Shown here piece after piece: positions 18,001 through 41,344 of a stretch of DNA of 64,000 nt. Every line of letters begins with the position of its first letter. Within the stretch, counting starts at the first letter, position 1. A model generated the notes under the pieces. The model worked only from the letters and a program-made list of their open reading frames with translations. It was not told the origin of the DNA and ran no database searches. Origin of the DNA: Nemertoderma westbladi (Eukaryota > Animalia > Xenacoelomorpha); contig JAUCBJ010009127.1 in NCBI GenBank assembly GCA_032718475.1, forward strand, positions 30,904-94,903, read 5' to 3'. The translations under genes and the position numbers were made by a program.

Positions 18001-21000
18001 GCAATCTTCATCTTCCACTCAGTTGTGGTTCATTCACGCACCCTTGTACTCTTCATCTTCCACTCAGTTGTGGTTCATTCTCGCACCCTTGCAATCTTCA
18101 TCTTCCACTCAGTTGTGGTTCATTCACGCACCCTGCAGTCTTCATCTTCCACTCAGTTGTGGTTGATTCACGCACCCTTGCAATCTTCATCTTCCACTCA
18201 GTTGTGGTTCATTCACGCACCCTTGCACTTTTCATCTTCCACTCAGTTGTGGTTCATTCCCGCACCCTGCAATCTTCATCTTCCACTCAGTTGTGGTTCA
18301 TTCACGCACCCTTGCAATCTTCATCTTCCACTCAGTTGTGGTTCATTCACGCACCCTTGTACTCTTCATCTTCCACTCAGTTGCGGTTCATTCACGCACC
18401 CTTGCACCCTTCATCTTCCACTCAGTTGCGGTTCATTCACGCACCCTAGTACTCTTCATCTTCCACTCAGTTGTGGTTCATTCCCGCATCCTTGCACTCT
18501 TCATCTTCCGCTCAGTTGTGGTTCATTCCCGCACCCTTGTACTCTTCATCTTCCACTCAGTTGTGGTTCATTCCCGCACCCTGCAATCTTCATCTTCCAC
18601 TCAGTTGTGGTTCATTCACGCACCCTTGCAATCTTCATCTTCCACTCAGTTGTGGTTCATTCACGCACCCTTGCACTTTTCATCTTCCACTCAGTTGTGG
18701 TTCATTCCCGCACCCTGCAATCTTCATCTTCCACTCAGTTGTGGTTCATTCACGCACCCTTGCAATCTTCATCTTCCACTCAGTTGTGGTTCGTTCACGC
18801 ACCCTTGTACTCTTCATCTTCCACTCAGTTGCGGTTCATTCACGCACCCTTGCACCCTTCATCTTCCACTCAGTTGCGGTTCATTCACGCACCCTAGTAC
18901 TCTTCATCTTCCACTCAGTTGTGGTTCATTCCCGCATCCTTGCACTCTTCATCTTCCGCTCAGTTGTGGTTCATTCCCGCACCCTTGCACCCTTCATCTT
19001 CCACTCAGTTGCGGTTCATTCCCGCATCCTTGCACACTTCATCTTCCACTCTGTTGTGGTTCATTCACGCACCCTGCAGTCTTCATCTTCCACTCAGTTG
19101 TGGTTGATTCACGCACCCTTGCAATCTTCATCTTCCACTCAGTTGTGGTTCATTCTCGCACCCTTGCAATCTTCATCTTCCACTCAGTTGTGGTTCATTC
19201 CCGCACCCTGCAATCTTCATCTTCCACTCAGTTGTGGTTCATTCACGCACCCTTGCACTCTTCATCTTCCACTCAGTTGTGGTTCATTCCCGCACCCTTG
19301 CACTCTTCATCTTCCGCTCAGTTGTGGTTCATTCCCGCACCCTGCAGTCTTCATCTTCCACTCAGTTGTGGTTGATTCACGCACCCTTGCACTCTTCATC
19401 TTCCACTCAGTTGTGGTTCATTCACGCTCCCTTGCAGTCTTCATCTTCCACTCAGTTGTGGTTGATTCACGCACCCTTGCACTCTTCATCTTCCACTCAG
19501 TTGCGGTTCATTCACGCTCCCTTGTACTCTTCATCTTCCACTCAGTTGTGGTTCACTCACGCAACTTGCACTTTTCATCTTCCACTCAGTTGCGGTTCAT
19601 TCACGCACCCTTGCACTCTTCATCTTCCACTCAGTTGTGGTTCATTCACGCACCCTTGCAATCTTCATCTTCCACTCAGTTGTGGTTCATTCACGCACCC
19701 TTGCAATCTTCATCTTCCACTCAGTTGTGGTTCACTCACGCAACTTGCACTTTTCATCTTCCACTCAGTTGCGGTTCATTCACGCACCCTTGCACTCTTC
19801 ATCTTCCACTCAGTTGTGGTTCATTCACGCACCCTTGCAATCTTCATCTTCCACTCAGTTGTGGTTCATTCACGCACCCTTGCAATCTTCATCTTCCACT
19901 CAGTTGCGGTTCATTCACGCTCCCTTGTACTCTTCATCTTCCACTCAGTTGTGGTTCACTCACGCAACTTGCACTCTTCATCTTCCACTCAGTTGTGGTT
20001 CATTCACGCACCCTTGCACTCTTCATCTTCCACTCAGTTGTGGTTCATTCCCGCACCCTTGCACTCTTCATCTTCCACTCAGTTGTGGTTCACTCCCGCA
20101 CCCTTGTACTCTCCATCTTCCACTCAGTTGTGGTTCACTCCCGCACCCTTGTACTCTTCATCTTCCACTCAGTTGTGGTTCATTCACGCACCCTTGCAAT
20201 CTTCATCTTCCACTCAGTTGTGGTTCATTCACGCAACTTGCACTTTTCATCTTCCACTCAGTTGTGGTTCATTCCCGCACCCTTGCACTCTTCATCTTCC
20301 ACTCAGTTGTGGTTCACTCCCGCACCCTTGTACTCTCCATCTTCCACTCAGTTGTGGTTCACTCCCGCACCCTTGTACTCTTCATCTTCCACTCAGTTGT
20401 GGTTCATTCACGCAACTTGCACTTTTCATCTTCCACTCAGTTGTGGTTCATTCCCGCACCCTTGCACTCTTCATCTTCCACTCAGTTGTGGTTCACTCCC
20501 GCACCCTTGCAATCTTCATCTTCCACTCAGTTGTGGTTCATTCACGCACCCTTGCACTCTTCATCTTCCACTCAGTTGTGGTTCATTCCCGCACCCTTGC
20601 ACTCTTCATCTTCCACTCAGTTGTGGTTCACTCCCGCACCCTTGTACTCTCCATCTTCCACTCAGTTGTGGTTCATTCACGCACCCTTGCAATCTTCATC
20701 TTCCACTCAGTTGTGGTTCATTCACGCAACTTGCACATTTCATCTTCCACTCAGTTGTGGTTCATTCCCGCACCCTTGCACTCTTCATCTTCCACTCAGT
20801 TGTGGTTCACTCCCGCACCCTTGTACTCTCCATCTTCCACTCAGTTGTGGTTCACTCCCGCACCCTTGTACTCTTCATCTTCCACTCAGTTGCGGTTCAT
20901 TCACGCACCCTTGCACCCTTCATCTTCCACTCAGTTGTGGTTCATTCACGCACCCTTGCAATCTTCATCTTCCACTCAGTTGTGGTTCATTCACGCACCC

Positions 21001-24000
21001 TTGCAATCTTCATCTTCCACTCAGTTGTGGTTCATTCACGCACCCTTGCAATCTTCATCTTCCACTCAGTTGTGGTTCATTCACGCAACTTGCACTTTTC
21101 ATCTTCCACTCAGTTGTGGTTCATTCCCGCACCCTTGCACTCTTCATCTTCCACTCAGTTGTGGTTCACTCCCGCACCCTTGTACTCTCCATCTTCCACT
21201 CAGTTGTGGTTCACTCCCGCACCCTTGTACTCTTCATCTTCCACTCAGTTGCGGTTCATTCACGCACCCTTGCACCCTTCATCTTCCACTCAGTTGCGGT
21301 TCATTCACGCACCCTAGTACTCTTCATCTTCCACTCAGTTGTGGTTCATTCCCGCATCCTTGCACTCTTCATTTTCCGCTCAGTTGTGGTTCATTCACGC
21401 ACCCTGCAGTCTTCATCTTCCACTCAGTTGTGGTTCATTCACGCAACTTGCACTCTTCATCTTCCACTCAGTTGTGGTTCATTCCCGCACCCTAGTACTC
21501 TTCATCTTCCACTCAGTTGTGGTTGATTCACGCACCCTTGCAATCTTCATCTTCCATTCAGTTGTGGTTCATTCACGCACCCTTGCAATCTTCATCTTCC
21601 ACTCAGTTGTGGTTCATTCACGCAACTTGCACTTTTCATCTTCCACTCAGTTGTGGTTCATTCTCGCACCCTGCAGTCTTCATCTTCCACTCAGTTGTGG
21701 TTGATTCACGCACCCTTGCACTCTTCATCTTCCGCTCAGTTGTGGTTCATTCCCGCACCCTGCAGTCTTCATCTTCCACTCAGTTGTGGTTGATTCACGC
21801 ACCCTTGCACTCTTCATCTTCCACTCAGTTGTGGTTCATTCACGCAACTTGCACTCTTCATCTTCCACTCAGTTGTGGTTCACTCACGCAACTTGCACTT
21901 TTCATCTTCCACTCAGTTGTGGTTCATTCCCGCACCCTTGCAGTCTTCGTCTTCCACTCAGTTGTGGTTCATTCTCGTTCCCTTGCAGTCTTCATCTTCC
22001 ACTCAGTTGTGGTTGATTCACGCACCCTTGCACTCTTCATCTTCCACTCAGTTGTGGTTCATTCACGCTCCCTTGCACTCTTCATCTTCCGCTCAGTTGT
22101 GGTTCATTCTCGCACCCTTGCAGTCTTCATCTTCCACTCAGTTGTGGTTCACTCACGCAACTTGCACTTTTCATCTTCCACTCAGTTGTGGTTCATTCCC
22201 GCACCCTTGCACTCTTCATCTTCCACTCAGTTGTGGTTCATTCTCGCACCCTTGCAGTCTTCATCTTCCACTCAGTTGTGGTTCACTCACGCAACTTGCA
22301 CTTTTCATCTTCCACTCAGTTGTGGTTCATTCCCGCACCCTTGCACTCTTCATCTTCCACTCAGTTGTGGTTCATTCTCGCACCCTTGCAGTCTTCATCT
22401 TCCACTCAGTTGTGGTTCACTCACGCAACTTGCACCCTTCATCTTCCACTCAGTTGCGGTTCATTCCCGCACCCTTGCACTCTTCATCTTCCACTCAGTT
22501 GTGGTTCATTCTCGCACCCTTGCAGTCTTCATCTTCCACTCAGTTGTGGTTCACTCACGCAACTTGCACTTTTCATCTTCCACTCAGTTGTGGTTCATTC
22601 CCGCACCCTTGTACTCTTCATCTTCCGCTCAGTTGTGGTTCATTCACGCACCCTGCAGTCTTCATCTTCCACTCAGTTGTGGTTGATTCACGCACCCTTG
22701 CACTCTTCATCTTCCACTCAGTTGTGGTTGATTCACGCACCCTTGCACTCTTCATCTTCCACTCAGTTGTGGTTCATTCCCGCACCCTTGCACTCTTCAT
22801 CTTCCGCTCAGTTGTGGTTCATTCACGCACCCTTGCAGTCTTCATCTTCCACTCAGTTGTGGTTCACTCACGCAACTTGCACTTTTCATCTTCCACTCAG
22901 TTGTGGTTCATTCCCGCACCCTTGCACTCTTCATCTTCCGCTCAGTTGTGGTTTATTCACGCACCCTTGCAATCTTCATCTTCCACTCAGTTGTGGTTCA
23001 TTCACGCAACTTGCACTTTTCATCTTCCACTCAGTTGTGGTTCATTCTCGCACCCTGCAGTCTTCATCTTCCACTCAGTTGTGGTTGATTCACGCACCCT
23101 TGCAATCTTCATCTTCCACTCAGTTGTGGTTCATTCACGCACCCTTGCAATCTTCATCTTCCACTCAGTTGTGGTTCATTCACGCAACTTGCACTTTTCA
23201 TCTTCCACTCAGTTGTGGTTCATTCCCGCACCCTTGCACTCTTCATCTTCCACTCAGTTGTGGTTCATTCTCGCTCCCTTGTACTCTTCATCTTCCACTC
23301 AGTTGTGGTTCATTCCCGCACCCTTGCATTCTTCATCTTCCACTCAGTTGTGGTTCATTCACGCACCCTTGCAATCTTCATCTTCCACTCAGTTGTGGTT
23401 CATTCACGCACCCTGCAGTCTTCATCTTCCACTCAGTTGTGGTTGATTCACGCACCCTTGCAATCTTCATCTTCCACTCAGTTGTGGTTCATTCACGCAC
23501 CCTTGCAATCTTCATCTTCCACTCAGTTGTGGTTCATTCACGCACCCTGCAGTCTTCATCTTCCACTCAGTTGTGGTTGATTCACGCACCCTTGCAATCT
23601 TCATCTTCCACTCAGTTGTGGTTCATTCACACACCCTTGCACTTTTCATCTTCCACTCAGTTGTGGTTCATTCTCGCACCCTGCAGTCTTCATCTTCCAC
23701 TCAGTTGTGGTTGATTCACGCACCCTTGCAATCTTCATCTTCAACTCAGTTGTGGTTCATTCTCACACCCTTGCAATCTTCATCTTCCACTCAGTTGTGG
23801 TTCATTCACGCACCCTTGCAATCTTCATCTTCCACTCAGTTGTGGTTCATTCTCGCTCCCTTGCACTTTTCATCTTCCACTCAGTTGTGGTTCATTCTCG
23901 CACCCTGCAATCTTCATCTTCCACTCAGTTGTGGTTCATTCACGCAACTTGCACTTTTCATCTTCCACTCAGTTGTGGTTCATTCTCGCACCCTGCAGTC

Positions 24001-24675
24001 TTCATCTTCCACTCAGTTGTGGTTGATTCACGCACCCTTGTACTCTTCATCTTCCACTCAGTTGTGTTTCATTCTCGCTCCCTTGCACTTTTCATCTTCC
24101 ACTCAGTTGTGGTTCATTCTCGCTCCCTTGCACTTTTCATCTTCCACTCAGTTGTGGTTCATTCTCGCACCCTGCAATCTTCATCTTCCACTCAGTTGTG
24201 GTTCATTCACGCAACTTGCACTTTTCATCTTCCACTCAGTTGTGGTTCATTCTCGCACCCTGCAGTCTTCATCTTCCACTCAGTTGTGGTTGATTCACGC
24301 ACCCTTGTACTCTTCATCTTCCACTCAGTTGTGTTTCATTCTCGCTCCCTTGCACTTTTCATCTTCCACTCAGTTGTGGTTCATTCTCGCACCCTGCAAT
24401 CTTCATCTTCCACTCAGTTGTGGTTCATTCACGCAACTTGCACTTTTCATCTTCCACTCAGTTGTGGTTCATTCTCGCACCCTTGCAATCTTCATCTTCC
24501 ACTCAGTTGTGGTTCATTCACGCAACTTGCACTTTTCATCTTCCACTCAGTTGTGGTTCATTCTCGCACCCTGCAGTCTTCATCTTCCACTCAGTTGTGT
24601 TTCATTCCCGCACCCTTGCAGTCTTCATCTTCCACTCCTCAGTTGTGGTTGATTCACGCACCCTTGCACTCTTCA
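1..24675. repeat. 45-bp tandem satellite array, left part (about 550 monomers, continues beyond window start)
   Basis: Consensus CAGTTGTGGTTCATTCCCGCACCCTTGCACTCTTCATCTTCCACT repeated head to tail, with 27-, 44- and 48-bp variants. The + strand is about 73% pyrimidine, so it lacks stop codons. Confidence 0.99.
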
Positions 24676-25853
24676 TGTTCGCGCTTTTAGACCTTTGGCA
24701 GTTTAACCCGCCAAATCAGGATGTCTTCTAGATAATAAATCACCTTTAGTCTATGACAAGTATTTAATTCACTACACTAGTCGAAACCAATCTGTGCGCG
24801 ATCATTCACCCGCTGGATATACCCGGGAGATTGGGTTCGACGGCTTAATTTTTATTGCTATGTAAGCCTAATGTATTATTCGACTGACAGTATTATATAA
24901 TCTCTGACAATATTATTCACCTTCGGGGAATATTAACAGTTCCTTTAGGACGTGGCGCTCTATCTATATAAACAGAGTTATGACTTAAACTACTCACAAC
25001 GATATGGCTTAGTTATAATTCACATATATGGCGCATTCTTTAGGAAATGCTTCGTTATCAGTATCACTCATACACGATGCTGCACAATACTGCACACTGA
25101 TCTGCCGATCTTCACTGATTTTAGTTATATATAAAAGGAACACGGACCGACTCATGTAGGGTCTATCAAATAACATTAGATTCACTTCAAACCACTTTAA
25201 CATAAGTCACAATCGTTATATGTAACCTTTCTCTCTTACCTTCGGTATATCAAGAATATTGGGTTTCGGGGTTATTTATCGTTATTCCAAATATAATAAT
25301 TCATCAACCATATTATGAAGAACTGACAGTAAATAGCAGTATAACAATATAAAAGTATGCACAGTAATTCAGTGTGCGTTAAGTTCATTAGTTTGATATT
25401 AAGTGTTGTGTTGTGATAAATGCAGATAACGGATATATGCCCTTTATAATTAAGCCTACTAGTGTTAGACTAAAACAGAAAAGCACAAAATATTTACAAG
25501 CCGTTCTCTCCTGGCTTAGGAAAGAAAGACCAACAACACTGAAAACTGATAAGAATAACCTTATTTACAAAGGCTTCCACCCAACACAGAGAAAGAGCAT
25601 AAAGATAGGAAAATTCAGTTCAGTAGATCTGTGATAGGTCGAAATCAAAATCAACTCAAATCCTATAGGCAGATACTTTCCCAAGCTGGTTGGACAATTA
25701 AACGTAGCCCAGATCCCTTCGCACAGCGAATCAGCCAATCAGCCGGTAGCTTGCGCTATTCGAGTTATAGATCCCTTTCTAGAGTATTCTAGCGACTGGG
25801 GGGGAACTGGTTAGCAAGGCAAACGAATCAGTTATCCCACAAAAGCTTTTACA
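24676..25853 (-). repeat. 3' LTR (1178 bp)
   Basis: TGTTCGCGCTTTT...AAAAGCTTTTACA, with an imperfect terminal inverted repeat. Near-identical to 42229-43406; I found 3 substitutions by eye (24971/42524, 25259/42812, 25268/42821). Confidence 0.98.
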
Positions 25854-25861
25854 CCGCTCCC
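25854..25861 (-). other. Short polypurine tract (GGGAGCGG) abutting the 3' LTR
   Basis: The minus strand reads ...TCTGGGAGCGG|TGTAAAAG, the expected position for the plus-strand primer. Confidence 0.7.
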
Positions 25862-25931: not shown

Positions 25932-28900
25932 TTAGTCTTTCTTGCGCGGACGGCGTTTACGCAGTTTTTTAAAGCTAGCAAGAGTCCTTTTCTCTTTGGG
26001 GCAAGCCACTTTACGAGGAGGGCTGTAGCTCCTAGGCGAAGGGTGCAATATAATTGCATCAGAAGGTGCAGGGTTACGATCGGTATACCCGCCGGTCGAA
26101 GTACCTGGTTGATTAATATCAACCTCAGTGGAGTAAGGTCTAACGGCCTTTAGAGCGCGTCTCAGGACAGCAGCTCCTACGGGTCCTTGACGGGTCGTCT
26201 GGACATTAGCGGTGGGTGGACCGTGAGTGGTGAGGAACTTTCTCGGTTTAATGGTTCTCTCCAGCTCGCGTTCTCGGGTTCGATATTCATATGGTCGCCG
26301 AGATATTTCCTGTAGTTCAGGATGCGAGTTCACAAAGATGTCGCCATACTCAGGATCTTGACGGATAAAATTGATCAGGTGATATGTGGTTATATCATTA
26401 GGGTTAACGTTTCTAAGGTATTTCCTGACAAACTTGGTGGAAATACACTCACCAACACGCTTCATTAACTCGTAACTTGGTACGCGTGTTTTCTGTTCAA
26501 TCGACGCGAATAGATAAGGATGGAACGCGTAAACTCCCTCGTAAGCTCGTCCAGGGTAATAGCGATGTCGGGATTCGCAGTGTAAATCGGCGTTCGCTTC
26601 CCAAGCTCGGATGTATCGCAGGGTGATCATCTCGTCTACGCTCTCTAAATCGCGATTAAAGGGACAATTGTAACTTTCATGTCCTTTAAGTTGGCAGTAG
26701 TGACATTGAGTCATAAATTGTGGGCAGACGGCAAATATATGAGAGTTATTAAGCCAGCAATAAGCACAATATATTTCCATCATCGGTTGTTCGAGGAAAT
26801 AGGAACAAGGTACGCTCGAGTCTAGAGGAGTGAAGTGGTCTCTCGATGCGCATAATCGACAACGTTTTCGAGAAACGTAGTTGGCGTGTCGATAATCGTA
26901 CGCTGTGAGACGCTGTGGACCTTGATACCACTCTATGACATAATCATTGTCACTGCTCCGGGAAGTTGTAGGCTGAATCGCTTCTGATTCCAAGCACACT
27001 GGTTCATCCTCCAGCTGTATAGACGAAGTGGGTGCGTCTGTCTCAGTAAGTGGATCCACTGTCTGTATTTCCACGACAGAATAACCTGTAGGTATTCGGG
27101 GTCTTTGTATAACAGATGAATGTGAGTTCTGTATACAAACGTCTTGAAACACGGCAAATCCAGCGCTACTCAGTTTCTCCGCAGCCGAGTCTCTCAGACT
27201 GAGTTTGGTCAGCGCGCGGTCCTTGAACTGACTATCGACGTTACGGAACGGAGTCAGAAAGCGCCGGAAACATTCGAAACGTATGAACTTATTGTGTTCG
27301 TCTAACTTGGCGAGTTTAGTTCCAAGTATTAACGGGTGAGCGCGTATGGTACGACTGCACACATCGGCTAGCCAACCGGCAAGTGCTGCGTTTTCAAAGA
27401 TCGTATATATAGCTAAGGAAGGGCGAAGTGGAACACTCATAAAGCTATATACTGCACCAGGCGCAGTTAATGGTCCGTCAAAATATAAACGGGAGTAATG
27501 ATCTCCATATACCTGCTGGTAATTGATAGGATTTCCAACTTTGAAATTCCATCCATATTCTTGAAGGGCAAGATGTCCGATGGATGTCCGTTGTACTTTA
27601 GTAATGTCGCTGGGTGTATTGGCATACATAGTGCGAAAGAAACCTCGGCCTTCGGCCCAAGGAGCAATCAGCTGAGTATCAACGAAAGGGTATGGAATGT
27701 TCTCCATATTCCGGAAGTCGTTTTGGAGGTCTCCATAAACAGCTGAGCCGATTTTTAGGATTCTTTCGTTAAACAACATTTCGAGCACGGGTTGGGGTAA
27801 CATTGATCCGTCGATACCCATGGCCGGTTTGCGCTCGGTGTCGGTGACGTAACGTTGCGCGAGCTCGAATTGTCCATGTCGAAGTTTCTTTTGTGTCTCC
27901 GTAAGGGTTTCAAAAGAATAATCGATCACGTCGGAACACGCTCGAGTGAATACGTGGGTAGAACCAGCGAGTCCTCGTATATGTATCATTCGCGTAGTTC
28001 CTAGTTCTCCCACCGGAACGCTACCTTCGTTGTCATAAGTAACAATGCCATACATCTCGATAACATTAAGAGTCTCGTTCCATTCTTTAGTGGCGTTTTC
28101 GAGAGCCATTCCCACTGGATGCCACAAAGTAGCGCATTCGCTAGCATTGGGTAAATCTCTATACTTTAAGCATTGTGTAGTATAGGTTTCCACATCTCCA
28201 TATCGTTTTATTCTTTCTTCCTCGAATAACACGTCAAGATTCCAGTGTACCAATCGAGTTTTAATGAATCCATCAAGATTGTACGGAGGTAATATTTCTT
28301 TCTCTATTCTGGAAATATTATACGGTTTTCGAAATGAGTTTAGTTTAACTAGCTGATCTAGATGTTTTTGTAGTTGTTCGAGTTCGACGAGGTCGAGAGG
28401 ATTGATCAATGGTAGAAACTTCAGACTATGCGTAGGATCTTCTGGTTTCACCATGTAATATTGCTTTAAATTGACGTAATAAGGATGATCCTTAATTCCA
28501 TAAAATGAGTCCGGCAAAGGTCTAGCGCGTATGTTAACATCGTGCGCCATGCGACGGACAAGATCCGCTCTATTGTCCGGAGGCTCAACAAGTACGCCAT
28601 CGACACGAGCAGCCTCGACGGGTGGACGTTGTAGCATGGGAGCGTCAGCAACGAGCTCTTGAGATCTGAGATCGGTGTTAACCGGTTGAGGCTGTACCGT
28701 AGCAAAGAGCTTGTCTTTAAAATGAGGAACCATCGAGGGGTGGAGAATCGGTTTGGAATAGAGATCCGTCACGAGAATTTGAGCTTCTGGTTGGGCTAAA
28801 GCTGCTTCTTCCCTCTCAGTCAGCTCTATATGTCTCTCCTCGAGCTGATTTTCCTCCGCTTGTTGTTGCAAGCGCTCGTCCAGGAATTCCTGTAAAGAGT

Positions 28901-30185
28901 AGGTTCGTCCACGTTCGATGTCCTCCTCTAGATTTTGTATTTCTCTATCGAACTGGGGTAAAGCTAGTTCTTTCACCGCTTGGACTTGTTGTTGCAATTT
29001 ACGTTTCTCCAAGCAATCGTAAGTTCCTTTTCCGATTTTCTGCCGAATAGCGTCCAATGCATTTCGTATCACGCTCTCTTTGACTTCTGTAACAGGTTGG
29101 ATCGGAGGAAGGCCAGGACGGTTGTAGGGGTTAAACGGTGATATTAGATGACCGCGTCCTAGTCCAGCAAGGTAAGGTTGGCGAATATCCAACGAACCCA
29201 CTACCGGAGTGCCACCAATCAACTGTTCAGGTAACACCAGATCTTTGAACAGTGAGTACAGTTCGGGAGGATCCGTAATACTATTAGGATCTAGAGTTTG
29301 AGGTATCACTTGGGAATGGGGAGGTCTGACCGAGTATTCCGGAACTCTGATCATGGGTTTATTCAATGATCGCTTAAGGCGCGCGACCGTAGGTGATACG
29401 TCGAAAAGGTTACGCTCGAAACTCCCATAAGTATATCGCGTAAAACTGTGTTTAGCGCAACGTCTCCGCGGATGTTTATGCCTTTCGATCTGCTGGTTAG
29501 GTCTAGGACATTCGTCACAGTAATACCAAAGACGCATGTCTTGAAGGGGAAACGCGGGTGATCGCTCTCCAGTTTTACAATATTCTTCCATCTGTTCGAA
29601 GCTATCTGGAACGACAGGGAGTGGTCGATCGGCGGTAAGATACATCATCGTAAAATAGAGCCGTTTGAGTTCCATTATAGGATCTGGATGTATACCTTGG
29701 GGATATCGAGTTTCGAGGTTTTGTTGACTGGCAACATTGAGATAGGTTTCTCTTAGAAATTCTAGATATTCGTTGAAGCCGCTACGTTTATCAGGTTCTT
29801 CAACGTCTTCTCTTTCGAGCTTATTTCGAATAGAGTTCTCGTGTTCTATTCTCGATTTATCGTTTCGACTCCGCTGGGTATGATATTTAAATAAAACCAT
29901 TTCCCTTTCGGTATCGACATCGTCGGTGTCGTGTAAATCAATAGGATGGCCGGTAGTTAAGAAGTCCATATACATACCATTACGATGCGTATAGCGAGCA
30001 GTGAATTTTCTATAGTCCAATTCACGCGTAAGTTGCTCCTGGGACATTGGCGGTTCGATATAACGACCATCGTCCTCCGTAGTAGTTGGATCAGCGTCGC
30101 CGCGTATCAAGCTATCGACAAACGCTTGTAAAGGTAGAGTATATCTCTCCCTGATACCAAGATCATCTTCTATTAATTCAGTCAT
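25932..30185 (-). CDS. Accessory ORF3 (1417 aa): N-terminal Cys/His cluster, coiled coil, DEDDy-like 3'-5' exonuclease domain, three C-terminal CCHC-like zinc knuckles, basic tail
   Basis: Uninterrupted 4.25-kb ORF between integrase and the 3' LTR. ExoI-like IVTYDNEG (~28026-28046), LPQPVLEMLFNERILKIGSAVYGD (ExoII, ~27729-27800), FVDTQLIA, SIGHLALQEYGWNFK and PLRPSLAIYTIFE (ExoIII-like, ~27390-27430). Knuckles CRLC..H..C, CAYC..H..C and CHYCQLKGHESYNC (~26660-26865). No signal peptide or transmembrane segment evident. Confidence 0.85.
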   Translation of the reverse strand: MTELIEDDLGIRERYTLPLQAFVDSLIRGDADPTTTEDDGRYIEPPMSQEQLTRELDYRKFTARYTHRNGMYMDFLTTGHPIDLHDTDDVDTEREMVLFKYHTQRSRNDKSRIEHENSIRNKLEREDVEEPDKRSGFNEYLEFLRETYLNVASQQNLETRYPQGIHPDPIMELKRLYFTMMYLTADRPLPVVPDSFEQMEEYCKTGERSPAFPLQDMRLWYYCDECPRPNQQIERHKHPRRRCAKHSFTRYTYGSFERNLFDVSPTVARLKRSLNKPMIRVPEYSVRPPHSQVIPQTLDPNSITDPPELYSLFKDLVLPEQLIGGTPVVGSLDIRQPYLAGLGRGHLISPFNPYNRPGLPPIQPVTEVKESVIRNALDAIRQKIGKGTYDCLEKRKLQQQVQAVKELALPQFDREIQNLEEDIERGRTYSLQEFLDERLQQQAEENQLEERHIELTEREEAALAQPEAQILVTDLYSKPILHPSMVPHFKDKLFATVQPQPVNTDLRSQELVADAPMLQRPPVEAARVDGVLVEPPDNRADLVRRMAHDVNIRARPLPDSFYGIKDHPYYVNLKQYYMVKPEDPTHSLKFLPLINPLDLVELEQLQKHLDQLVKLNSFRKPYNISRIEKEILPPYNLDGFIKTRLVHWNLDVLFEEERIKRYGDVETYTTQCLKYRDLPNASECATLWHPVGMALENATKEWNETLNVIEMYGIVTYDNEGSVPVGELGTTRMIHIRGLAGSTHVFTRACSDVIDYSFETLTETQKKLRHGQFELAQRYVTDTERKPAMGIDGSMLPQPVLEMLFNERILKIGSAVYGDLQNDFRNMENIPYPFVDTQLIAPWAEGRGFFRTMYANTPSDITKVQRTSIGHLALQEYGWNFKVGNPINYQQVYGDHYSRLYFDGPLTAPGAVYSFMSVPLRPSLAIYTIFENAALAGWLADVCSRTIRAHPLILGTKLAKLDEHNKFIRFECFRRFLTPFRNVDSQFKDRALTKLSLRDSAAEKLSSAGFAVFQDVCIQNSHSSVIQRPRIPTGYSVVEIQTVDPLTETDAPTSSIQLEDEPVCLESEAIQPTTSRSSDNDYVIEWYQGPQRLTAYDYRHANYVSRKRCRLCASRDHFTPLDSSVPCSYFLEQPMMEIYCAYCWLNNSHIFAVCPQFMTQCHYCQLKGHESYNCPFNRDLESVDEMITLRYIRAWEANADLHCESRHRYYPGRAYEGVYAFHPYLFASIEQKTRVPSYELMKRVGECISTKFVRKYLRNVNPNDITTYHLINFIRQDPEYGDIFVNSHPELQEISRRPYEYRTRERELERTIKPRKFLTTHGPPTANVQTTRQGPVGAAVLRRALKAVRPYSTEVDINQPGTSTGGYTDRNPAPSDAIILHPSPRSYSPPRKVACPKEKRTLASFKKLRKRRPRKKD

Positions 30186-31009
30186 ATCTGCTATACGAGT
30201 TCACCAATATTATAATGAGTTTATATATTGTTAGGCGAGCGGGCGTCGCTGCCTATTTCTCCCTTGCCCCCGGACAGTATGAGATTCTCAGCGCCGATGT
30301 ACCGCTGTCGCTATACTTTCGCCAACGACGTAGCCGTACAACGACAACGATAACCGGCACAAGTCACTCAACTGTCCGTCCCAAAGGCTTAGATGTACTT
30401 CAGGTTTTCTTTGGAGAGTTAGGTTACTTTTACGATTGCGACTAGCTACTGTAAACACACTTTAGCAGTAACATTCACCTATAAACTCACAAATACCACA
30501 CAACTGGTCACAACTACGCATTCGGGCCATTTGTCCGTTAGTCAATGCCTTCCAGAATGTCACTGTATTATCATGTATCCTTGGATACTAGTAGTGCGCT
30601 ATTTATTCCCTATGCTATTCAATGGGACAAGCTTTCTATTGTTCTTTTAACTCAATTCTAATTCTAGCGTGGTTGTTGCTATGGTGACATTATGCAAAGC
30701 TAGCGGTAGAATTAGGGTAATTCCAATGCGTACAGATCTGGGATGTTATTTAATAGTATTCTTTAATAGTCAATGTTCTGTTTTATACATGACTTTATGA
30801 ATTTTATCGGCTATTGACTATGTTTGGGAGACTTTCGCACACTCATATGCATAATAAGATAAATCTCCGCTCCCTTGATCTATTAATTAATGGAATTTTG
30901 GGAATGTTATAAATTACGTAAAAATGGCAATTTATTAAATTCATTAAAAGGCATGAATTTAAATTTATTCCCTGAAATTTTATTATTTGATAATTAAATG
31001 GACATATTT

Positions 31010-31290
31010 TGATTCTAGAACATGTCTAGGGACACAAGATCCTTAATTCTATGACAATTGTCTTTTTTAAGAATATCGGTAAATGCTACGATATCTTAAT
31101 TGACTAGAATTATTGAAGGATCTGAATTTTACAGATTTTGATTTATTAGATTTGCAAATATTAAATAATTAATATTTGAGATGGGCACCGATTTATTCCA
31201 GAACTTGTCTGGGGACGTTAACCACTGATTCTATAATTTGTCTTTCAAGTATATCGGTGGGTGCCGCGATATCTTAATCGACTAGAATTA
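31010..31290. repeat. Degenerate ~100-bp direct repeat pair in the pol-ORF3 spacer
   Basis: ~31010-31112 (ATTCTAGAACATGTCTAGGGAC...CGATATCTTAATTGACTAGAATTA) versus ~31193-31290 (ATTCCAGAACTTGTCTGGGGAC...CGATATCTTAATCGACTAGAATTA). Confidence 0.75.
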
Positions 31291-31835
31291 CAGATGGTCA
31301 AAGGGTTTAACAGATTTATTTGCGTTATACGCTACTGTTAAAGAGACATCACGCTACTATATGTATTATTTAATATACGGTATGAGAGCAATATCGCACG
31401 AAGCAATGTCAGTGTGAAGAGGCAAGTAGTTTCCAAGGTCTACCCAGAGCTTGGTTTAGCCGAGACACGAGGATCTGAACTTTGCATTCCTAATACTCTG
31501 CCTACCAATAATACTTAAATATAGTAGTGGCTTTATTGTACTTTAATAAGTACGGACATTTCATCTTACTGTAGTTACGTATTTATAATATAATACGGAC
31601 AGTAAGGAAAGAGAAAAAATAATTATTTCTTCGCCGTCTCACTAAATATAATGTAAGTAATTACGTACATAATAAACACGAATATATTGCACTATTCTAC
31701 AAAATAATCGCTAAATAATATTCTACTAAATTAAATAAAACGATTATAATAAAATTACATAGTAATACATAAATAAATATAAAAATAATAAAAATAATAT
31801 AAAATAATAGAGTCACACGCCCACTCCGAACGATA

Positions 31836-32924
31836 TTAAGTTGGAGAGTCCCTAGATGTCGGTTGGATTAGGGAAGTGGTCGTGGGAAGAGTTTCTTGCC
31901 TTCCATAGTTTCCGGAGAGCTCTCTGTCTCTTTCCAGTAAACATAAACGTCCCACTGGGCGATTGAGCTGTTGAGTCTCAAAGACTATCCCTGGTTTCTT
32001 AAAGTTACGCCGCATTACGACGAGCTCTACCGATCGCACCAAACCATCGCTCGAGATATGAGTCTCGATGATACGTCCTGTTTGCCATCGCTTACGTGGG
32101 AGATCGGGGTCCACAATAAGCACCATGTCTCCAGCGCTGACGTTTTCTTGCTGCGCAAACCACTTAGTTCGAAGTTGTAGAGTGGGCAGGTAATGTTTCT
32201 CGAAATGGTCAGCGAAACGACGGGATAGCAACTGCATAAGTTGCCAGGTTCGACGGCAGTACTCGTCTCCGTCTGTGATCTCCGATCGTGGGAGCATGGC
32301 TACGGGCTTCTTCAGTAGAAAGTGCGCGGGTGTTAGCGCTTCCAGGGAATCAGGATTTGAAGAAACTGGCATAAGCGGTCTTTCGTTGAGATAGGCGGCG
32401 ATTTCCTCCATTAACGTCCGCAATAGTTCGTCGGTGAGATAAGCGCGACAAGGTACAATAAAGTGGAACGCAGTCTTCACGCTCCTAATCAATCTCTCCC
32501 AACTTCCTCCCCACCAAGGGGCGTCGGCGGCGTTGAAGGTCCAGCTAGACGCTGTTATCTTTAGCTGATCGTCCACCTGTCTTTTGTTCCAGTCCTTTAC
32601 GTAAGCTTGAATTTCGTTGTTGGCGCCAATGAAGTTCGTTCCCTTATCCGATCTCATCGTGTTACTGGTTCCGAAACGAGCGATCTGTCGTCGTAAACTC
32701 AACACGAAGCTGTTGGTGGATAGATCGTTTACCATATCGAGATGGATAGCTCTACAAGTCATACAAACGAAGATGACACACCATCTCTTGACTATAGTCC
32801 GGGCACGATATACTTCAATAGGGCCAAATAAATCCACACCGGTATTAGTAAAGGGTGGTTCATAGAAGCTTACTCTTTCCCTAGGTAATTCTGCCTCTCG
32901 CTGTGTTAAAGGCCTACCTGAATG
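31836..32924 (-). CDS. pol segment 3: integrase DDE core and C-terminal domain
   Basis: LPRERV..PFTNTGVDLFGP, RAIHLD, SDKGTNF, APWWGGSWERLIRSVK, LNERPL, LTPAHFL and W..GRI....DGLVR. The frame extends upstream of the track ORF to the frameshift at ~32925. Confidence 0.93.
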   Translation of the reverse strand, partial: HSGRPLTQREAELPRERVSFYEPPFTNTGVDLFGPIEVYRARTIVKRWCVIFVCMTCRAIHLDMVNDLSTNSFVLSLRRQIARFGTSNTMRSDKGTNFIGANNEIQAYVKDWNKRQVDDQLKITASSWTFNAADAPWWGGSWERLIRSVKTAFHFIVPCRAYLTDELLRTLMEEIAAYLNERPLMPVSSNPDSLEALTPAHFLLKKPVAMLPRSEITDGDEYCRRTWQLMQLLSRRFADHFEKHYLPTLQLRTKWFAQQENVSAGDMVLIVDPDLPRKRWQTGRIIETHISSDGLVRSVELVVMRRNFKKPGIVFETQQLNRPVGRLCLLERDRELSGNYGRQETLPTTTSLIQPTSRDSPT

Positions 32925-34465
32925 CTTTCCTACAGGGTATGCAGTTCCTAAGAACTTGGTTCAGAGCCCTACGGGGTTTATAAAAATAGTAGCGAGTGCG
33001 AATTTCGCTCAGAACTCGTTCTCTACCAGCATGGTACAGTTTGCTATGAACATCGACAATTATCTTGATTTGTATGTCAAGATTTCTAATGAGGATGGGA
33101 AACTTAGTGTCAAAGGATAATGGGGCGTTGGTCAGCCTGCCTCCAACACGTATTAACCCATCTATCATGGTACGAGAGAAGCGATCCCTTAAGCGCATCT
33201 GTGGATTTCTTAACAACAGGAAATACTTATCGGAATCCTCATAGCATTGTAGGAGTCTCAGCATCTGTTTGTTGGTTTCATCATGCTCCTGGTAGCTGAT
33301 CTTCTCCTTTAGAAACCTGTCAGATACCTTGTATTGTGGAAGATCTTTAACAACATGGACTCGTGCAGATGTTGATGGAGCATCATCACTATGGGTCTTT
33401 GTCCCGGAGTAACGATGATGAAAACATCGTTTTAAATAGGTGACAGCTTTACAGAGCCGATTCCAGGAACTGTAGTGACGTATCGCTCTCTGCAAGAGAG
33501 GTGAGAGTCCTTGTGAGATATCTGGTATTCCAGATTTCCAATCCTTGTCACGGATTTCCAAGACTTCTTTAGTCGTGGCAGTGGGTTTCTGATCCAAAGC
33601 ATCATCTCCGGAAGTAAATAATACAGATAGATCAACCGCAGGTTTAAACAACTTCGATTTACTCGCTCGAGTTTTGGGTTTAACTTTCTCCGCTCCCTTG
33701 GCCTGTCTGATCTCTGCTGTTGTGAGATGGGGAGGCCATTCTTCTTCTTCTCTGTAGAGAAAGTCGGGTCCTCCTAACCATTCGGGAGTATTTACCAATT
33801 CCTTTGGAGTCGCTCCTCGGGAAGCGATGTCTGCTGGGTTAATCGTTCCGGGGCAATGTCTCCATTGGTCCATCGTCGTGCGACTAAGTATGATGGCTAC
33901 CCTGTTGGTAATGAAGACGCTGAACTGACAGACTTCATTGGTTATATACTCTAACACGAGTAAAGCGTCGGTCCAATAGACAGTTTTCTCTAATGTATAG
34001 TCAATCTGTTCGGTTACATTCCGGCCGATGGCTGTAGCGTATAGAGCCGCTTTTAACTCCGCTCGAGGAACTTTCAACTTGTTGTTGATTAATGCCTTAG
34101 AAGTAACCAAGGCGACTTTGATTCCATCCGGAGTTTCCACTCTTAGGTAGGCTACTATACCTATTCCCATATCGCTGGCGTCTCCAAACACATGGAGTTG
34201 ATAGGAATACGTAGGGAGAACATGACCAAAATATGAACGGGAAATTATAAAATCCTCGATAGCCGGCAGAGAATCTTCCCATTCCATCCACTTCTTCAAT
34301 AATTCTCCCTTAAGTGGATCGTCCCATGAGTGGTTTTCAAGCCACATTTGTTGTACCAAACTACGAGCAATCAATATAACTGGGCTAATAAATCCCAATG
34401 GATCGAAATAAGTGCTCAGTATACTTAAGCAAATCCGTTTTGTTCGAACTGGATTATCTCGCTGT
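32914..34465 (-). CDS. pol segment 2: Pao RNase H region and integrase HHCC zinc finger
   Basis: RTKRICLSILSTYFDPLGFISP, LHVFGDAS, VPRAELKAA, YWTDA, WRHCPGTINPADIASRG, W..GP.FL, DGLIRVGGRL and H...H...CIPC. Out of frame with its neighbours at both ends. Confidence 0.93.
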
Positions 34466-37400
34466 TTTAGCTGGGAAAAACAGGATATCTCGCTCTGTGT
34501 CCCATTTCAAGCCGAGTGTCTTGGTTTCTGGCAGATCATCTTTGATCAAATCTAGATCTTTCGCCCCTCGATCTTCCGCGGGGATCGACTCCAGAAACTC
34601 ACGGGAGTTGCTGGTGAATTTTGTTAATCGAAAACCACCTCTTTTTAAGCACTCTACCGTTCCTTTAGCGACCTCAATGGCTTCCTCAACTGATGGAAGG
34701 GACTTCAGATTGTCGTCCATGTATATGTCTCTCTTGATGTTGTCGATCACTTCCTTAGAGAAGGCCTCTCTGTTGTCCTCTGCAGTGGTACGCACTACCG
34801 AACAGGCGTTGGAAGGGCTTGAGATTATCCCAAAGGCCTGGATGGTCATCCAGTACTCCACCGGTTTCTGGTTGAGGTCTCCTTCGGGCCACCACAGAAA
34901 TCGTAGACTATCTCGATCCTTATCTAACACCTTGACTTGTAAGAACATGCCTTCTATATCGGAGGCGAAAGCAATCGAATATTGTCTCAATCTTAAAAGA
35001 ATTCCCAACAAAGATTGAAGCAAGTTGGGTCCGGGTAACAATTCAGAGTTAAGGGATTGACCCATGTAAAGGGCGGAGCCATCAAACACTACTCTCACTT
35101 CGTGTGGCTTACCGGGTTTAGGAACGTAATGGTGAGTTAAGTAATACGTTCTTTCATTCACAGGTGTTTCTTCCGGTACTCTCTCCGCGTATCCCTTACT
35201 AATAAATTTTTCCAGCTGTGTTTGATACATTGCTTTAGCTGAAGAATTAGCCGTAAGGCGTCGATGGAGTTGCGCGATTCTTTTTTCCGCCAAAGGTCTG
35301 TTATTGATGAACTTCGGTTCTTTCTTGCGGAAAGGTAGACCGACTTCATACCTACCTTGATCTTTGAGGAAACGTGTAGTTGTCTCTTGGATCTGCTTGG
35401 CCCTTTCCTCTTCCACCGACAAGGCTTTATCGTAGGAATTGGGCTCTACCGCCTCTTGCGTAAAGAATCGTACGGCATGTTCATCCCGAGTCTTGGCATT
35501 ATGACGCTCAATGACGTCATTTAACTCGTCGTTATAAGCTTCTCGTTCAGATGGATAGAGAAGTTGACATAAGTTCACTTGGTTCTGCCAAGCCTCGTTT
35601 TCCTTAAGGAGATCGATGGTATTCTCTTCATCAAAAAGCTGGTGAACGTCGTCATTATCTGAGGAGTATGGAGTTCCCTCAGTTAAGTTGTCTCCCTCAC
35701 TGGTATCATCTTCCCATTCACTCACCTGGCATACGCTCTCTGGCGGTAGTCTTTCTCTGAGTGTTCTACGGGAAGGACCAGTAAAGTACCAACCTACTCT
35801 AGTTCTTACCGCATAGGTCTGTAGTGGCTGCGGTTGAGCAGGCCGTTTCTCTAATGTCTCCAGCGCCTCATGCGCGTTTTGGCCGATGAGTATTTGCACT
35901 CCAGGATAATCAGTCTGGAATCGAGGTATGTTAAGATGTTGGATGCTCTCATCCTCGTCCCAATTATAAAGGTCTGCTTGAGTAGTAGCGAAGTTCTTTA
36001 TAGCTACCATTTTCACTGACCTTATGCTATGTTCTCCTAGTTCGTCTTGTGGGGTGGACAACGCGCCTACATAATAATCAGCTGTTATTGTAGATTTCCA
36101 AACTTGCATAATGCCGGACATGTTGAGCTTAGTTTGGAACTTGGGTTGTCCAGCAAATATATCTTCGGCTAGCTCTTTGTCGATGAATGTTCCTGTACTA
36201 CCGGAGTCAAGGAGGGCGTTCACTACATAACTCCTCTTAGGTCCGTGAACCCTTACTTGCACCACAGGAAACTCTCGGATCCCTACATTGGAAGATGGCT
36301 CTTTCCAAGATGGTTGTCGCTCAGAAGTAGTTAGAGTGAAGTCGTTGTCTGTATCCTTTTCATATGTGAGTGCTCGATACACTGCGGTATTTATCATGTA
36401 ACAGGATTCGTTTTCGTCGGAGAACTCGTCTGTATAGAATCCTTCCATCTCAGATTGATCAGTGTCGTTCACATCACTGAATTGGACATGTAGCTCGGAA
36501 TCACTTACCTGACTCGGACTATTTCGATCGAATTCAGCGTGCAACAAGATATGATGTTTCGCACCACACTTTGCACACCTTATGTCAGAGAAACAGGTTC
36601 GCCGTTGGTGTCCTTGTCTGAGGCAATTATAACATAACCGCTTATCCCACATGACTTCGCGTCTCTCCGTTAATGATTTCTTTAGAAATTCATCACACCT
36701 ATTCAAATGGTGGGTCCCGTCACACAGCGCACATTTCGGTTTGATGTTACTTACCTTATTCTGAGTCACATTGTGTACACTTGCCTTTTCTTCGGGCTTT
36801 CTCACCTGAATTCTCTTGGGAGACGTGGGAGGAGTTTTTCTTACCTGTTCTCTCCTGTCATTTGCTCGAGACTTGAATTTACTTACCTGATCTTTAGGCA
36901 TTTTATTGACATAATAAGATCTATCAGTGTCTTTCCCGCTATCTTCTCCTTGAGAAGTCTGGCTTTCGCCGTCGTCTGTATAACACACTGGTGTTACCTT
37001 TCTCCTAGAGACGGGTTTTTCACTTACCTTGTTTTCCGGTGTCTTCTCTCGGGACTGCTTGAGGAGTTGCAATTTCACTTCTCCATCCAAGAATGACATG
37101 AGATCAGCCATGGTAGGGTCTCGTCGTTGTTGTTCCATCATATATAGTACTTTCTTATCCCAGCGTGTGCCTACCCCACCTTTCGGTAAAGTAGAAGCCA
37201 CAGCTCCAATGACCATAGAACTTTGGTATTCATGAGACTTACCTAACCAATCTAATTGTCTACAGATCTCTTGAATCTCATCGGAAAACTCTATTATCCC
37301 ACTGCTGATGAACTTTCTGGGCGCTACTAATTTTGCATATAAATACTTAGCGATATTATTCCTATTACCATACCTGATGTTTAGTGTGTCCCAAACTTGT

Positions 37401-39976: not shown

Positions 39977-41344
39977 GTTTATGTTTACAGTGGAATGTCT
40001 ACTGCTATATTACAGTCTGAGCACGTCTAGTAACTCAGTATTAACTGCTAGCCTAGTAATTAATTACCGGTACTGCTACTCAGTGTAGCGTGATATATAT
40101 AATATATTATAATACCGGTATGCTTATAGTATATATAACTATTATTACAAACCAGGTTTATCGCAGAATACCGGTATAATTTTAGCACAAATATATATAA
40201 ATATATAATAGGCCTATCGGAATACCGGTATACAGCTTACAGTTTTGTAGTATATATAAGTATAATTCTGGACTAGAATTAATTATAAGGTACCGGTATA
40301 ATTTCAGCCTAAATTTATAGAAATAGAGATAATAGGCCTATCGTAAATACCGGTATATCAATTATTTTAAATAATTGAATTTCTGAATTTTAGGTTACTT
40401 GGTTACTTTACTTACTTTATTACCATTTTTTGAGCAGTAGACCAACTGATATGGAGACCTAATGGTTGTATGGTAGGCCTACTATTTATAAATCGTTAGA
40501 TTTGATTTATAATATATTTATACCCGTTTTAATGGGTTTAGTCAATGTTTGAAATAAATGTTATTATTTCTGGGGAGTAATCACTACACAAAGCGGTGCG
40601 CTTTCAGTGAAGTGTTACTCATAGGACACTAAAACAAATAATACTAATTTACCTAAGTTACTTAATACTACAAATTACGTACAATTCGGGTGAGATTACA
40701 ATCTCTAAATAAACACAAAATTTACAAAAACACAAAATACGAAATTTCAGGGTAATTTTACAAGAAGTCTACAAACCAGCCTAACAAAGGGTTAGAAATC
40801 TGATTATTACAACGGACAGGGTACTGCGGTATTTGAAAATAATACGTAGTAGTAAATACACTGCGTTGTCCAGATAGGAAAATACCACCGCCTGACGACC
40901 TATAGCCGTTTCGCTACAGGTACTACGTTATGTATCACGGAGTGTTCCTACCTAGAAGTTAATAGAGCTAATCGAACGTGCCTATCAACCACTTTACAAC
41001 ACAAATATAATGCCTACTAATTACTTTCGGAAAGCACTGTACACTAAACCCTAAATTAGGTACGAGTACTTGTATAACATATAATCTGTAGTTAAATATA
41101 CTTGAACAGCTAAAAGAACCACGGCATCTGCTGGAGTGACCGATGCACAAAATCACCAGTCTTTACCTACGCCAAGCAGCCCGTGTAGTACCGGGGTTAA
41201 TTTAACTATAGCAGTATGTATAACAAACACAATTACTGTAGGAACAAACTTGGGGAATGAATGTTGCGAATAATCGCATAAACTCTGAATAATAAATATT
41301 ACGCTACGCGTACAAACTACTCAAACAAAATGCAGACCGAACAC

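What the first reader, a model, noticed from the sequence alone, without database searches (positions are those of the whole stretch)
25932..30185. BEL/Pao retrotransposon carrying a 1417-aa DEDDy-type exonuclease/zinc-knuckle ORF instead of env
Seen: an intact, co-oriented 4.25-kb ORF in the env position, with no obvious signal peptide or transmembrane helix. It has correctly ordered motifs YDNEG, LP..L..L....ILKIG..V..D, VD...A, S...LA....G...K and PL.....Y...E, followed by three CCHC-like knuckles. Established: this motif series characterises WRN/EXD/Mut-7(Nibbler)/RNase D DEDDy exonucleases, several of which act in small-RNA pathways. As I recall, DEDDy ORFs have been reported in some bdelloid rotifer retroelements, but I know of none in this large multidomain form in BEL/Pao. 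Inference: it could be an anti-silencing factor, a primer-trimming nuclease, or a proofreading partner that supports a ~17-kb RNA genome, by analogy with nidovirus ExoN. The last catalytic Asp appears to be Glu, so it might instead be an RNA-binding pseudo-nuclease.
Basis: partly seen in the sequence, partly recalled or inferred. Interest (0 to 1): 0.9.

Follow-up and report, generated by a model that had tools for sequence, protein, structure and literature searches.

The report
Giant BEL/Pao retrotransposon carrying exonuclease gene
A young, unusually long (18.7 kb) jumping gene of the BEL/Pao group carries, where an envelope gene would sit, a large intact gene kept by selection whose product likely combines an RNA-end-trimming enzyme domain with zinc knuckles and would most likely act against the host's silencing RNAs; a similar cargo is in print for another retrotransposon group in rotifers.

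Summary
A 1417-aa ORF (25932-30185, minus strand) lies between integrase and the 3' LTR of an 18,731-bp BEL/Pao element with 1178-bp LTRs (3 mismatches) and a 5-bp target duplication. It has no membrane helix. Among the best-supported differences to other copies, 24 of 31 are silent, like gag-pol (25 of 37), so it is a selected part of an abundant family. Residues ~705-945 are likely a DEDDy (RNase D/WRN-like) exonuclease: weak profile hits, language-model neighbours and one distant homologue with the same exonuclease + knuckle layout agree. Only ExoII is firmly placed; both folds failed. The last catalytic Asp appears to be Glu in both proteins, so activity is open. It probably works like trypanosome RND (knuckles feed an RNA 3' end to the nuclease); the target is unknown, with host small RNAs my best guess (0.35). 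New here: the element has no tRNA-type primer site but 12 nt exactly complementary to its own LTR, so self-primer trimming is a testable rival. DEDDy ORF3s are in print for rotifer Ty3/gypsy elements; I found none for BEL/Pao. New variant of a known kind.

The parts
42229..43406 (-). 5' LTR, 1178 bp, TG...CA
   Evidence: 3 mismatches to the 3' LTR
24676..25853 (-). 3' LTR, 1178 bp; AATAAA at LTR nt 998, TATAAA at nt 406
24671..24675 (+). 5-bp target-site duplication CTTCA (left copy; right copy 43407-43411)
42207..42228 (-). Primer-site position: does not begin with TGG; first 12 nt exactly complementary to LTR nt 417-428, extending to a 21-bp duplex with two bulges
42979..43000 (-). LTR nt 407-428, the partner of the primer site (second copy at 25426-25447): candidate self-primer
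   Evidence: 0 of 5000 shuffled LTRs reach 12 nt
39977..42228 (-). 2252-nt AT-rich leader with a 258-nt direct repeat and 38-nt tandem units
34454..40009 (-). gag-protease-RT frame (first ATG 39976; DUF1759, gag knuckles, LLDSG, YMDD)
32914..34506 (-). RT end / RNase H region / integrase zinc finger, second frame
   Evidence: Peptidase_A17, Integrase_H2C2
31836..32960 (-). integrase core and C-terminus, third frame
   Evidence: (DUF5641)
30186..31835 (-). 1650-nt non-coding spacer (34% GC) between pol and ORF3; likely holds the signals that express ORF3 (not shown)
25932..30185 (-). ORF3, 1417 aa (P0001)
   Evidence: 24 of 31 shown differences silent
28074..30185 (-). ORF3 aa 1-704: no family found; Gln/Glu-rich stretch at aa ~400-470, Cys/His cluster at aa 223-246
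27351..28073 (-). DEDDy-like exonuclease domain, aa ~705-945: ExoI D718/E720 (28026-28034), ExoII D819 (27729-27731), ExoIII Y927/E931 (27393-27407)
26664..26861 (-). three Cys/His knuckles, aa 1109-1174
   Evidence: (zf-CCHC_3, E 0.006)
25854..25861 (-). short purine-rich tract before the 3' LTR
1..24670 (.). 45-bp satellite array into which the element inserted; continues at 43407-55045

Best explanation
ORF3 is a selected accessory gene of an abundant BEL/Pao family, and its product is likely an RNA-binding 3'-to-5' exonuclease of the DEDDy type that would grip single-stranded RNA with its zinc knuckles, feed the 3' end into the nuclease site as trypanosome RND does, and most likely target the host's silencing small RNAs. 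Shown: the ORF, its place in the element, its conservation among copies, the lack of env features. Inferred from weak but concordant sequence evidence: the DEDDy domain (about 0.85). Inferred by analogy: knuckle-fed action on RNA 3' ends. Least supported: the target. Trimming or removing small-RNA 3' ends would blunt silencing and help an 18.7-kb element stay abundant; ORF3 is likely expressed apart from gag-pol and could act in trans.
For: Intact ORF inside near-identical LTRs. Covered in 30 of 30 bins in 4 of 4 runs laid, with 0, 0, 0.08 and 0.12 of laid records running on into unlike sequence. 24 of 31 shown differences silent against 33.5% expected for transitions, p 7e-7; gag-pol 25 of 37, Fisher p 0.42. 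RNase D profile TIGR01388 E 0.0024 on aa ~798-843. Atlas neighbours carry PF01612 for both the window domain (0.92) and P0002 (0.86, cluster with PF01612 + zf-CCHC, Euglenozoa). One homologue among 1.84 billion representatives, P0002 (E 6.9e-7), has the same exonuclease-then-knuckles order. A fungal family linked through ExoII (hhalign 94.6%) matches WRN, EXD2 and Mut-7 structures. TbRND: exonuclease plus CCHC fingers, fingers needed for binding and cleavage, overexpression depletes guide RNAs (PMC7797062, passages).
Against: No fold support: AlphaFold2 pLDDT 32 and 48. The fungal link is partly circular (the family was found with the ExoII motif). ExoI and ExoIII are placed only by collinearity with P0002; a fungal ExoIII block did not rank the proposed site among the top six in either protein. 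Glu replaces Asp at ExoIII. Nothing in the sequence points to small RNAs as the target. In rotifers, DEDDy ORF3s showed no clear link to copy number and no departure from neutrality within the genome (PMC5408684). Half of the protein (aa 1-700) is unexplained.
Confidence: 0.35

Rival explanations
1. ORF3 is a pseudo-nuclease: it keeps the DEDDy fold but does not cut, and works as an RNA-binding decoy, adaptor or particle scaffold, as EXD1 and Maelstrom do in the piRNA pathway.
For: Glu for Asp at ExoIII in both the window protein and P0002; ExoIII too diverged for a fungal block to find; ~30-aa insertion between ExoI and ExoII relative to P0002. EXD1 and Maelstrom as inactive DEDD derivatives: PMC5408684 discussion. 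The ExoIII Asp matters in TbRND (D230A leaves trace activity).
Against: D718, E720, D819, Y927 and an acidic residue at 931 are all kept in two proteins only 25-30% identical. Rotifer ORF3s also change one Asp to Glu (DEED) and were read as possibly active.
Confidence: 0.25
2. ORF3 matures a self-primer: the element primes reverse transcription with its own RNA (LTR nt 407-428 paired to the primer site), and the exonuclease trims the overhanging 3' end back to the duplex to leave a flush 3'-OH at LTR nt 428.
For: No TGG after the 5' LTR; first 12 nt exactly complementary to LTR nt 417-428; 0 of 5000 dinucleotide-shuffled LTRs reach 12; only 2 internal positions of about 16,300 reach 12, this being one; pairing probability 0.88-1.0 for 11 of 12 pairs when folded from LTR nt 381-417. 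TATAAA, a variant poly(A) signal (recalled), lies at nt 406, and a CA 5 nt past the primer end.
Against: A canonical AATAAA at LTR nt 998 is the likelier poly(A) signal, which would put nt 428 inside the RNA and call for an endonucleolytic cut as in Tf1 (recalled). By energy alone the duplex is not exceptional (15 of 200 control 24-mers as good). Earlier scan notes list self-priming BEL/Pao elements in other genomes with no exonuclease mentioned in the summaries shown (unchecked). Conservation of the pairing among copies was not tested.
Confidence: 0.2
3. ORF3 is a proofreading or cDNA-editing partner of reverse transcriptase that supports a 17-18 kb genome, by analogy with nidovirus ExoN.
For: The element is about twice the 4.2-10 kb stated for the family (PMC8742986; PMC3118150). 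Closest solved relatives of the linking family include WRN and EXD2.
Against: ORF3 is not fused to Pol; ORF3 and its spacer themselves make up about 6 kb of the excess; Ogre and Burro elements reach 25-30 kb with no exonuclease named in the passages read (PMC6431247); knuckles point to single-stranded RNA.
Confidence: 0.07
4. The motif series is convergent or the ORF is a passenger (captured host gene or nested element) without a role for the element.
For: No Pfam, PDB or fold match. Diverged copies in two runs appear to share a 2728-nt deletion that removes the exonuclease and knuckles (short sides of 22-29 letters, so weak).
Against: Silent-change excess as strong as in gag-pol; no introns, no inner LTRs or terminal repeats; same GC3 as gag-pol (0.41 vs 0.43); homologue with the same domain order. 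Deleted copies can be moved in trans.
Confidence: 0.1

Closest known systems
DEDDy ORF3 of bdelloid rotifer LTR retrotransposons Juno1/2, Vesta2/5 and of Terminons (Rodriguez et al. 2017, PMC5408684; parts 2, 3 and 5 of 5 read)
   Same: Non-env ORF3 after pol; RNase D/WRN/Mut-7-like domain; no membrane helix; one Asp changed to Glu; function untested
   Different: Those are Ty3/gypsy-type with LTRs of 159-551 bp; change is DEED, here it appears to be at the last position; no tandem CCHC knuckles described; here 1417 aa in a BEL/Pao element, with a silent-change excess among copies. Common origin not tested (rotifer sequences not fetched).
Trypanosoma brucei RNase D, TbRND (PMC7797062; passages)
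   Same: DEDDy exonuclease followed by tandem CCHC fingers; the Atlas neighbour of P0002 is a Euglenozoa cluster with these two families
   Different: Cellular, mitochondrial, about 390 aa, four fingers, canonical Asp at ExoIII; no significant PDB sequence match to it
WRN exonuclease / EXD2 / Mut-7 (Nibbler) group, PF01612
   Same: ExoII stretch LP..L..LL....I.K.G..I.GD shared through a fungal family; PL..DQ..Y layout of ExoIII visible in P0002
   Different: Below every curated cut-off; insertions; Glu at ExoIII; knuckles
Belpaoviridae / Semotivirus (PMC8742986, whole text)
   Same: gag-PR-RT-RH-IN order, LTRs of 1.2 kb, BEL-specific Pfam domains
   Different: 18.7 kb against 4.2-10 kb; third gene is not env; no tRNA-type primer site
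Tf1/sushi self-priming chromoviruses (mechanism recalled; PMC3601003 passage notes hairpin priming in some chromoviruses)
   Same: Primer site complementary to the element's own LTR sequence
   Different: BEL/Pao rather than Ty3/gypsy; transcript ends unknown
Dada DNA transposons of Laccaria and Ectocarpus with a DEDDy domain (PMC3706591; passages)
   Same: Transposon-borne DEDDy exonuclease
   Different: Inserted within a DDE transposase, all four acidic residues kept, DNA transposon

Membership tests
BEL/Pao (Belpaoviridae) | LTRs with TG...CA ends and a short target duplication | tested here: met
BEL/Pao (Belpaoviridae) | gag with knuckles, then PR-RT-RH-IN; BEL-specific domains DUF1759, Peptidase_A17, DUF5641 | tested here: met
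   this copy's pol changes frame twice
BEL/Pao (Belpaoviridae) | RT phylogeny within Bel/Pao | not tested
   no reference RT set fetched
BEL/Pao (Belpaoviridae) | 18-nt primer site complementary to a tRNA 3' end (as stated in PMC8742986) | tested here: not met
   no TGG start; complementary to own LTR instead; host tRNAs not available, so an internal tRNA fragment is not excluded. A typical, not a defining, trait
env-type ORF3 | signal peptide and membrane anchor | tested here: not met
   hydropathy maximum 1.19; acidic N-terminus
DEDDy 3'-5' exonuclease (PF01612, RNase D/WRN) | profile match at the curated cut-off | tested here: not met
   no Pfam hit for the window domain; TIGR01388 E 0.0024, 17 bits; P0002 PF01612 E 0.2
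DEDDy 3'-5' exonuclease (PF01612, RNase D/WRN) | ExoII Asp in its sequence context | tested here: met
   D819; 14.6 bits against a best of -0.3 for 200 shuffles and the reversed protein, partly circular; independent TIGR01388 hit
DEDDy 3'-5' exonuclease (PF01612, RNase D/WRN) | ExoI DxE | tested here: inconclusive
   D718/E720 align with P0002 and fungal DxE, but the register depends on alignment bounds and ranks 4th by ungapped score
DEDDy 3'-5' exonuclease (PF01612, RNase D/WRN) | ExoIII YxxxD | tested here: not met
   YxxxE in both proteins; register top-ranked between them (21 vs 10) but not found by the fungal block
DEDDy 3'-5' exonuclease (PF01612, RNase D/WRN) | DnaQ/RNase H-like fold | tested here: inconclusive
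   models too poor; only aa ~790-850 reached pLDDT 70-80, in an alignment-guided run
DEDDy 3'-5' exonuclease (PF01612, RNase D/WRN) | metal-dependent 3'-5' cleavage | not testable with these tools
   needs an assay
Rotifer TE-borne DEDDy ORF pool | groups with Juno/Vesta/Athena DEDDy ORFs in a tree | not tested
   those sequences were not among the search hits
Tf1-type self-priming elements | primer site complementary to own LTR | tested here: met
Tf1-type self-priming elements | complement lies at the mapped transcript end and pairing covaries among relatives | not testable with these tools
   no raw RNA reads listed; read-laying runs did not cover these places

The most novel reading that the evidence does not exclude
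A giant BEL/Pao lineage that has dropped tRNA priming, primes with its own RNA end folded back onto the primer site, and encodes a dedicated knuckle-fed DEDD-type exonuclease with a DEDE site to trim that end into a flush primer: a fourth replication enzyme for an LTR retrotransposon.
Probability: 0.17. Interest if true: 0.87.

Novelty: new variant of a known kind. Interest (0 to 1): 0.55.

Why it matters
LTR retrotransposons of different groups appear to have picked up 3'-5' exonucleases more than once, and nobody has shown what for. This family offers a large, intact, selected example in BEL/Pao, with a ready model (TbRND) and two sharply different, testable jobs: disarming small-RNA silencing, or making the element's own primer. 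Either would add a new kind of accessory function to animal retrotransposons. It also roughly doubles the size range stated for the family.

Tried and rejected
No whole genome is held, so copies were seen only as short contigs laid from 4 of 7 listed runs. No RNA holder listed; X5 is only guessed to be RNA. Summed contig depth is lower over the exonuclease than over pol or the ORF3 ends, but the tool says depth cannot rank genes, so it is not used. Protein searches: aa 560-1280 found nothing among 2899 candidates of 779-2480 aa; alignment A1 found only P0002 among 7989 candidates; aa 301-1300 found 1 protein in 1.84 billion. Residues 1-300 were scanned only against Pfam, PHROGs and PDB. P0002's genomic context is unknown (one 9449-nt contig). 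Locus scans: metagenomes 0 of 442 and 4 of 264 stretches (three are fungal-type WRN-like genes, L001 unresolved), viral contigs 0 of 315, prokaryote genomes 0 of 17, plasmids one chance hit. PDB sequence searches with P0001, A2, A3 gave nothing relevant; P0002 hit only retroviral nucleocapsid knuckles. AlphaFold2: single sequence pLDDT 32; 43-row alignment, with bounds chosen to keep the ExoI register and with ExoIII out of register, pLDDT 48; Foldseek no match at E 0.001, VIA best Z 3.5: uninformative. No tRNA or Rfam match. An alternative ExoIII at aa ~889-895, where MAFFT puts the fungal YAALD, was rejected because the Tyr spacing does not fit and P0002 has no Asp there. Programmed frameshifts in pol were rejected as the likelier reading: other copies differ in length at both overlaps, so these are probably lesions of this copy or its sub-lineage. 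Literature: searches found no BEL/Pao exonuclease; one search was swamped by unrelated papers; one search found nothing on an Asp-to-Glu ExoIII mutant. Malik 2000, Ganko 2001, an Eickbush review and Levin 1995 could not be opened with the ids tried; Repbase and GyDB were not searchable.


Full report
1. The observation. On the minus strand, 30185-25932 is one open frame of 1417 codons. It lies inside an element bounded by two 1178-bp LTRs (24676-25853, 42229-43406) that differ at 3 sites, end in TG...CA and are flanked by a CTTCA duplication; the total is 18,731 bp. The element sits in a 45-bp satellite. Upstream are gag-pol frames with DUF1759, Peptidase_A17, Integrase_H2C2 and DUF5641 and motifs in the order gag knuckles, protease, RT, integrase: a BEL/Pao element. 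pol changes frame twice; other copies differ in length at both overlaps, so these are probably lesions. ORF3 starts 1650 nt after the integrase stop and ends 78 nt before the 3' LTR. Its hydropathy peaks at 1.19: it is not env.

2. ORF3 belongs to the family and is under selection. Seven runs were listed; I laid four. All four cover ORF3 and both flanks in 30 of 30 bins; 44,355 contigs were laid from one run alone; the share running on into unlike sequence was 0, 0, 0.08 and 0.12. Of the 40 best-supported differences shown (1557 more not shown), 31 fall in ORF3: 24 are silent, all at third positions, against 33.5% expected for random transitions (p 7e-7). For gag-pol, 25 of 37 are silent (40 shown, 2447 not shown; Fisher p 0.42). 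GC3 is alike (0.41 against 0.43-0.50). This is not a formal dN/dS, but it argues against a passenger. Against: contigs in two runs join across a shared net 2728-nt gap that removes the exonuclease and knuckles; sides are short, and deleted copies can move in trans.

3. What the protein is. The whole protein matches nothing in Pfam, PHROGs or PDB. The cut-out domain hits the RNase D profile TIGR01388 at E 0.0024 over aa ~798-843, and its Atlas neighbours carry PF01612 (0.92; 10 of the ten best hits with a family agree, which a third of shuffled proteins also achieve). HMMER over 1.84 billion representatives gave one hit, P0002 (648 aa, E 6.9e-7), which aligns over the exonuclease region (30%) and again over the knuckles. 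P0002's nearest Atlas cluster carries PF01612 and zf-CCHC (0.86, a lead only). A pattern from the pair retrieved fungal-type WRN-like genes. A profile of those 41 proteins scores the window's aa 794-821 at 14.6 bits, against a best of -0.3 for 200 shuffles and the reversed protein; hhalign gives 94.6% over 37 columns; 36 of them as a profile match WRN (E 1e-8), EXD2 and Mut-7 chains. This link is partly circular. ExoII (D819) is therefore firm. ExoI (D718, E720) aligns with DxE of P0002 and of the fungal proteins in some alignments but not in others. ExoIII is YxxxE in both proteins, in ungapped register; P0002 shows the W..PL..DQ..Y layout seen in WRN, but an ungapped fungal block did not find it. 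Both AlphaFold2 runs failed and the fold searches are uninformative. I put the DEDDy reading at about 0.85 and leave activity open. Residues 1-700 are unexplained.

4. The primer site. The sequence after the 5' LTR does not start with TGG. Its first 12 nt are the exact complement of LTR nt 417-428; 0 of 5000 shuffled LTRs reach 12, and only one other of about 16,300 internal positions does. The pairing extends to 21 bp with two bulges (-21.6 kcal/mol), although 15 of 200 control 24-mers pair as stably somewhere in the LTR. The geometry puts a primer 3' end at LTR nt 428, facing U5. I found this before reading that the scan has noted self-priming candidates in BEL/Pao elements of other genomes (unchecked notes). 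Those notes lower its novelty and, as their summaries mention no exonuclease, weaken a strict need for ORF3.

5. How it most likely works. The closest working model is TbRND: a DEDD exonuclease followed by CCHC fingers that bind single-stranded RNA and are needed for efficient cleavage; overexpression depletes guide RNAs (PMC7797062, passages). I infer that ORF3 likewise holds an RNA with its knuckles and presents the 3' end to the nuclease site. For the target I favour host small RNAs (0.35), because exonuclease cargo recurs in unrelated LTR lineages (PMC5408684; scan notes, unchecked), which suggests a general benefit, and because Mut-7-type relatives act in silencing. Nothing here shows that target. 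Rivals: a non-cutting RNA-binding decoy or scaffold (0.25), trimming of the self-primer (0.2), a passenger or wrong fold (0.1), proofreading (0.07).

6. Known and new. DEDDy ORF3s are described for rotifer Juno and Vesta elements and Terminons, with function untested (PMC5408684, parts 2, 3, 5 read; PMC6431247 and PMC5718144, passages); a DEDDy domain also occurs in some Dada DNA transposons (PMC3706591, passages). BEL/Pao elements are given as 4.2-10 kb with at most an env third gene and a tRNA primer site (PMC8742986, whole text; PMC3118150, passages). Searches found no exonuclease in BEL/Pao; PMC2774666, PMC12440569 and the hookworm Atlas virus preprint do not contain the word. I recall that Malik et al. 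2000 noted an exonuclease domain in the nematode BEL element Cer13; I could not open that paper, and subscription journals and Repbase were not searched. Verdict: a real feature, a new variant of a known kind; interest 0.55.

Noticed in passing
42207-42228 and 42979-43000 (also 25426-25447): No tRNA-type primer site; the first 12 nt after the 5' LTR are the exact complement of LTR nt 417-428 (21-bp duplex with two bulges). Candidate self-priming BEL/Pao element.
   Followed up: partly
1-24670 and 43407-55045: 45-bp satellite array of at least 36 kb, strongly strand-skewed (597 exact matches of a 14-mer), interrupted by the element; its long stop-free frames follow from the repeat.
   Followed up: partly
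26066-28835: Contigs in two runs join across the same net 2728-nt gap, removing exonuclease and knuckles; the letters at the joint differ, so several diverged copies may share one old deletion. Short sides make it weak.
   Followed up: partly
34454-34506 and 32914-32960: pol changes frame twice in this copy, although the LTRs differ at only 3 sites; other copies vary in length at both places.
   Followed up: partly
38577-38804: Ala/Glu/Lys-rich repeat in an unusually long region (about 800 aa) before the gag core.
   Followed up: no
41318-41863, 42032-42145, 31065-31297: Direct repeats in the 2.25-kb leader (258 nt x2, 38 nt x3) and in the pol-ORF3 spacer (55 nt x2).
   Followed up: no
61781-63125: A second, unrelated tandem array of 14/28-bp units rich in AGGTTAG.
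   Followed up: no
L002:3145-3974, L003:505-1612, L004:516-1623; P0003-P0043: A family of fungal-type, WRN-like DEDDy exonucleases with a conserved unnamed C-terminal domain, split by an apparent intron; possibly transposon-borne.
   Followed up: no
56291-57195: 63-nt inverted repeat pair, 92% complementary, 779 nt apart; possibly a small non-autonomous DNA transposon.
   Followed up: no
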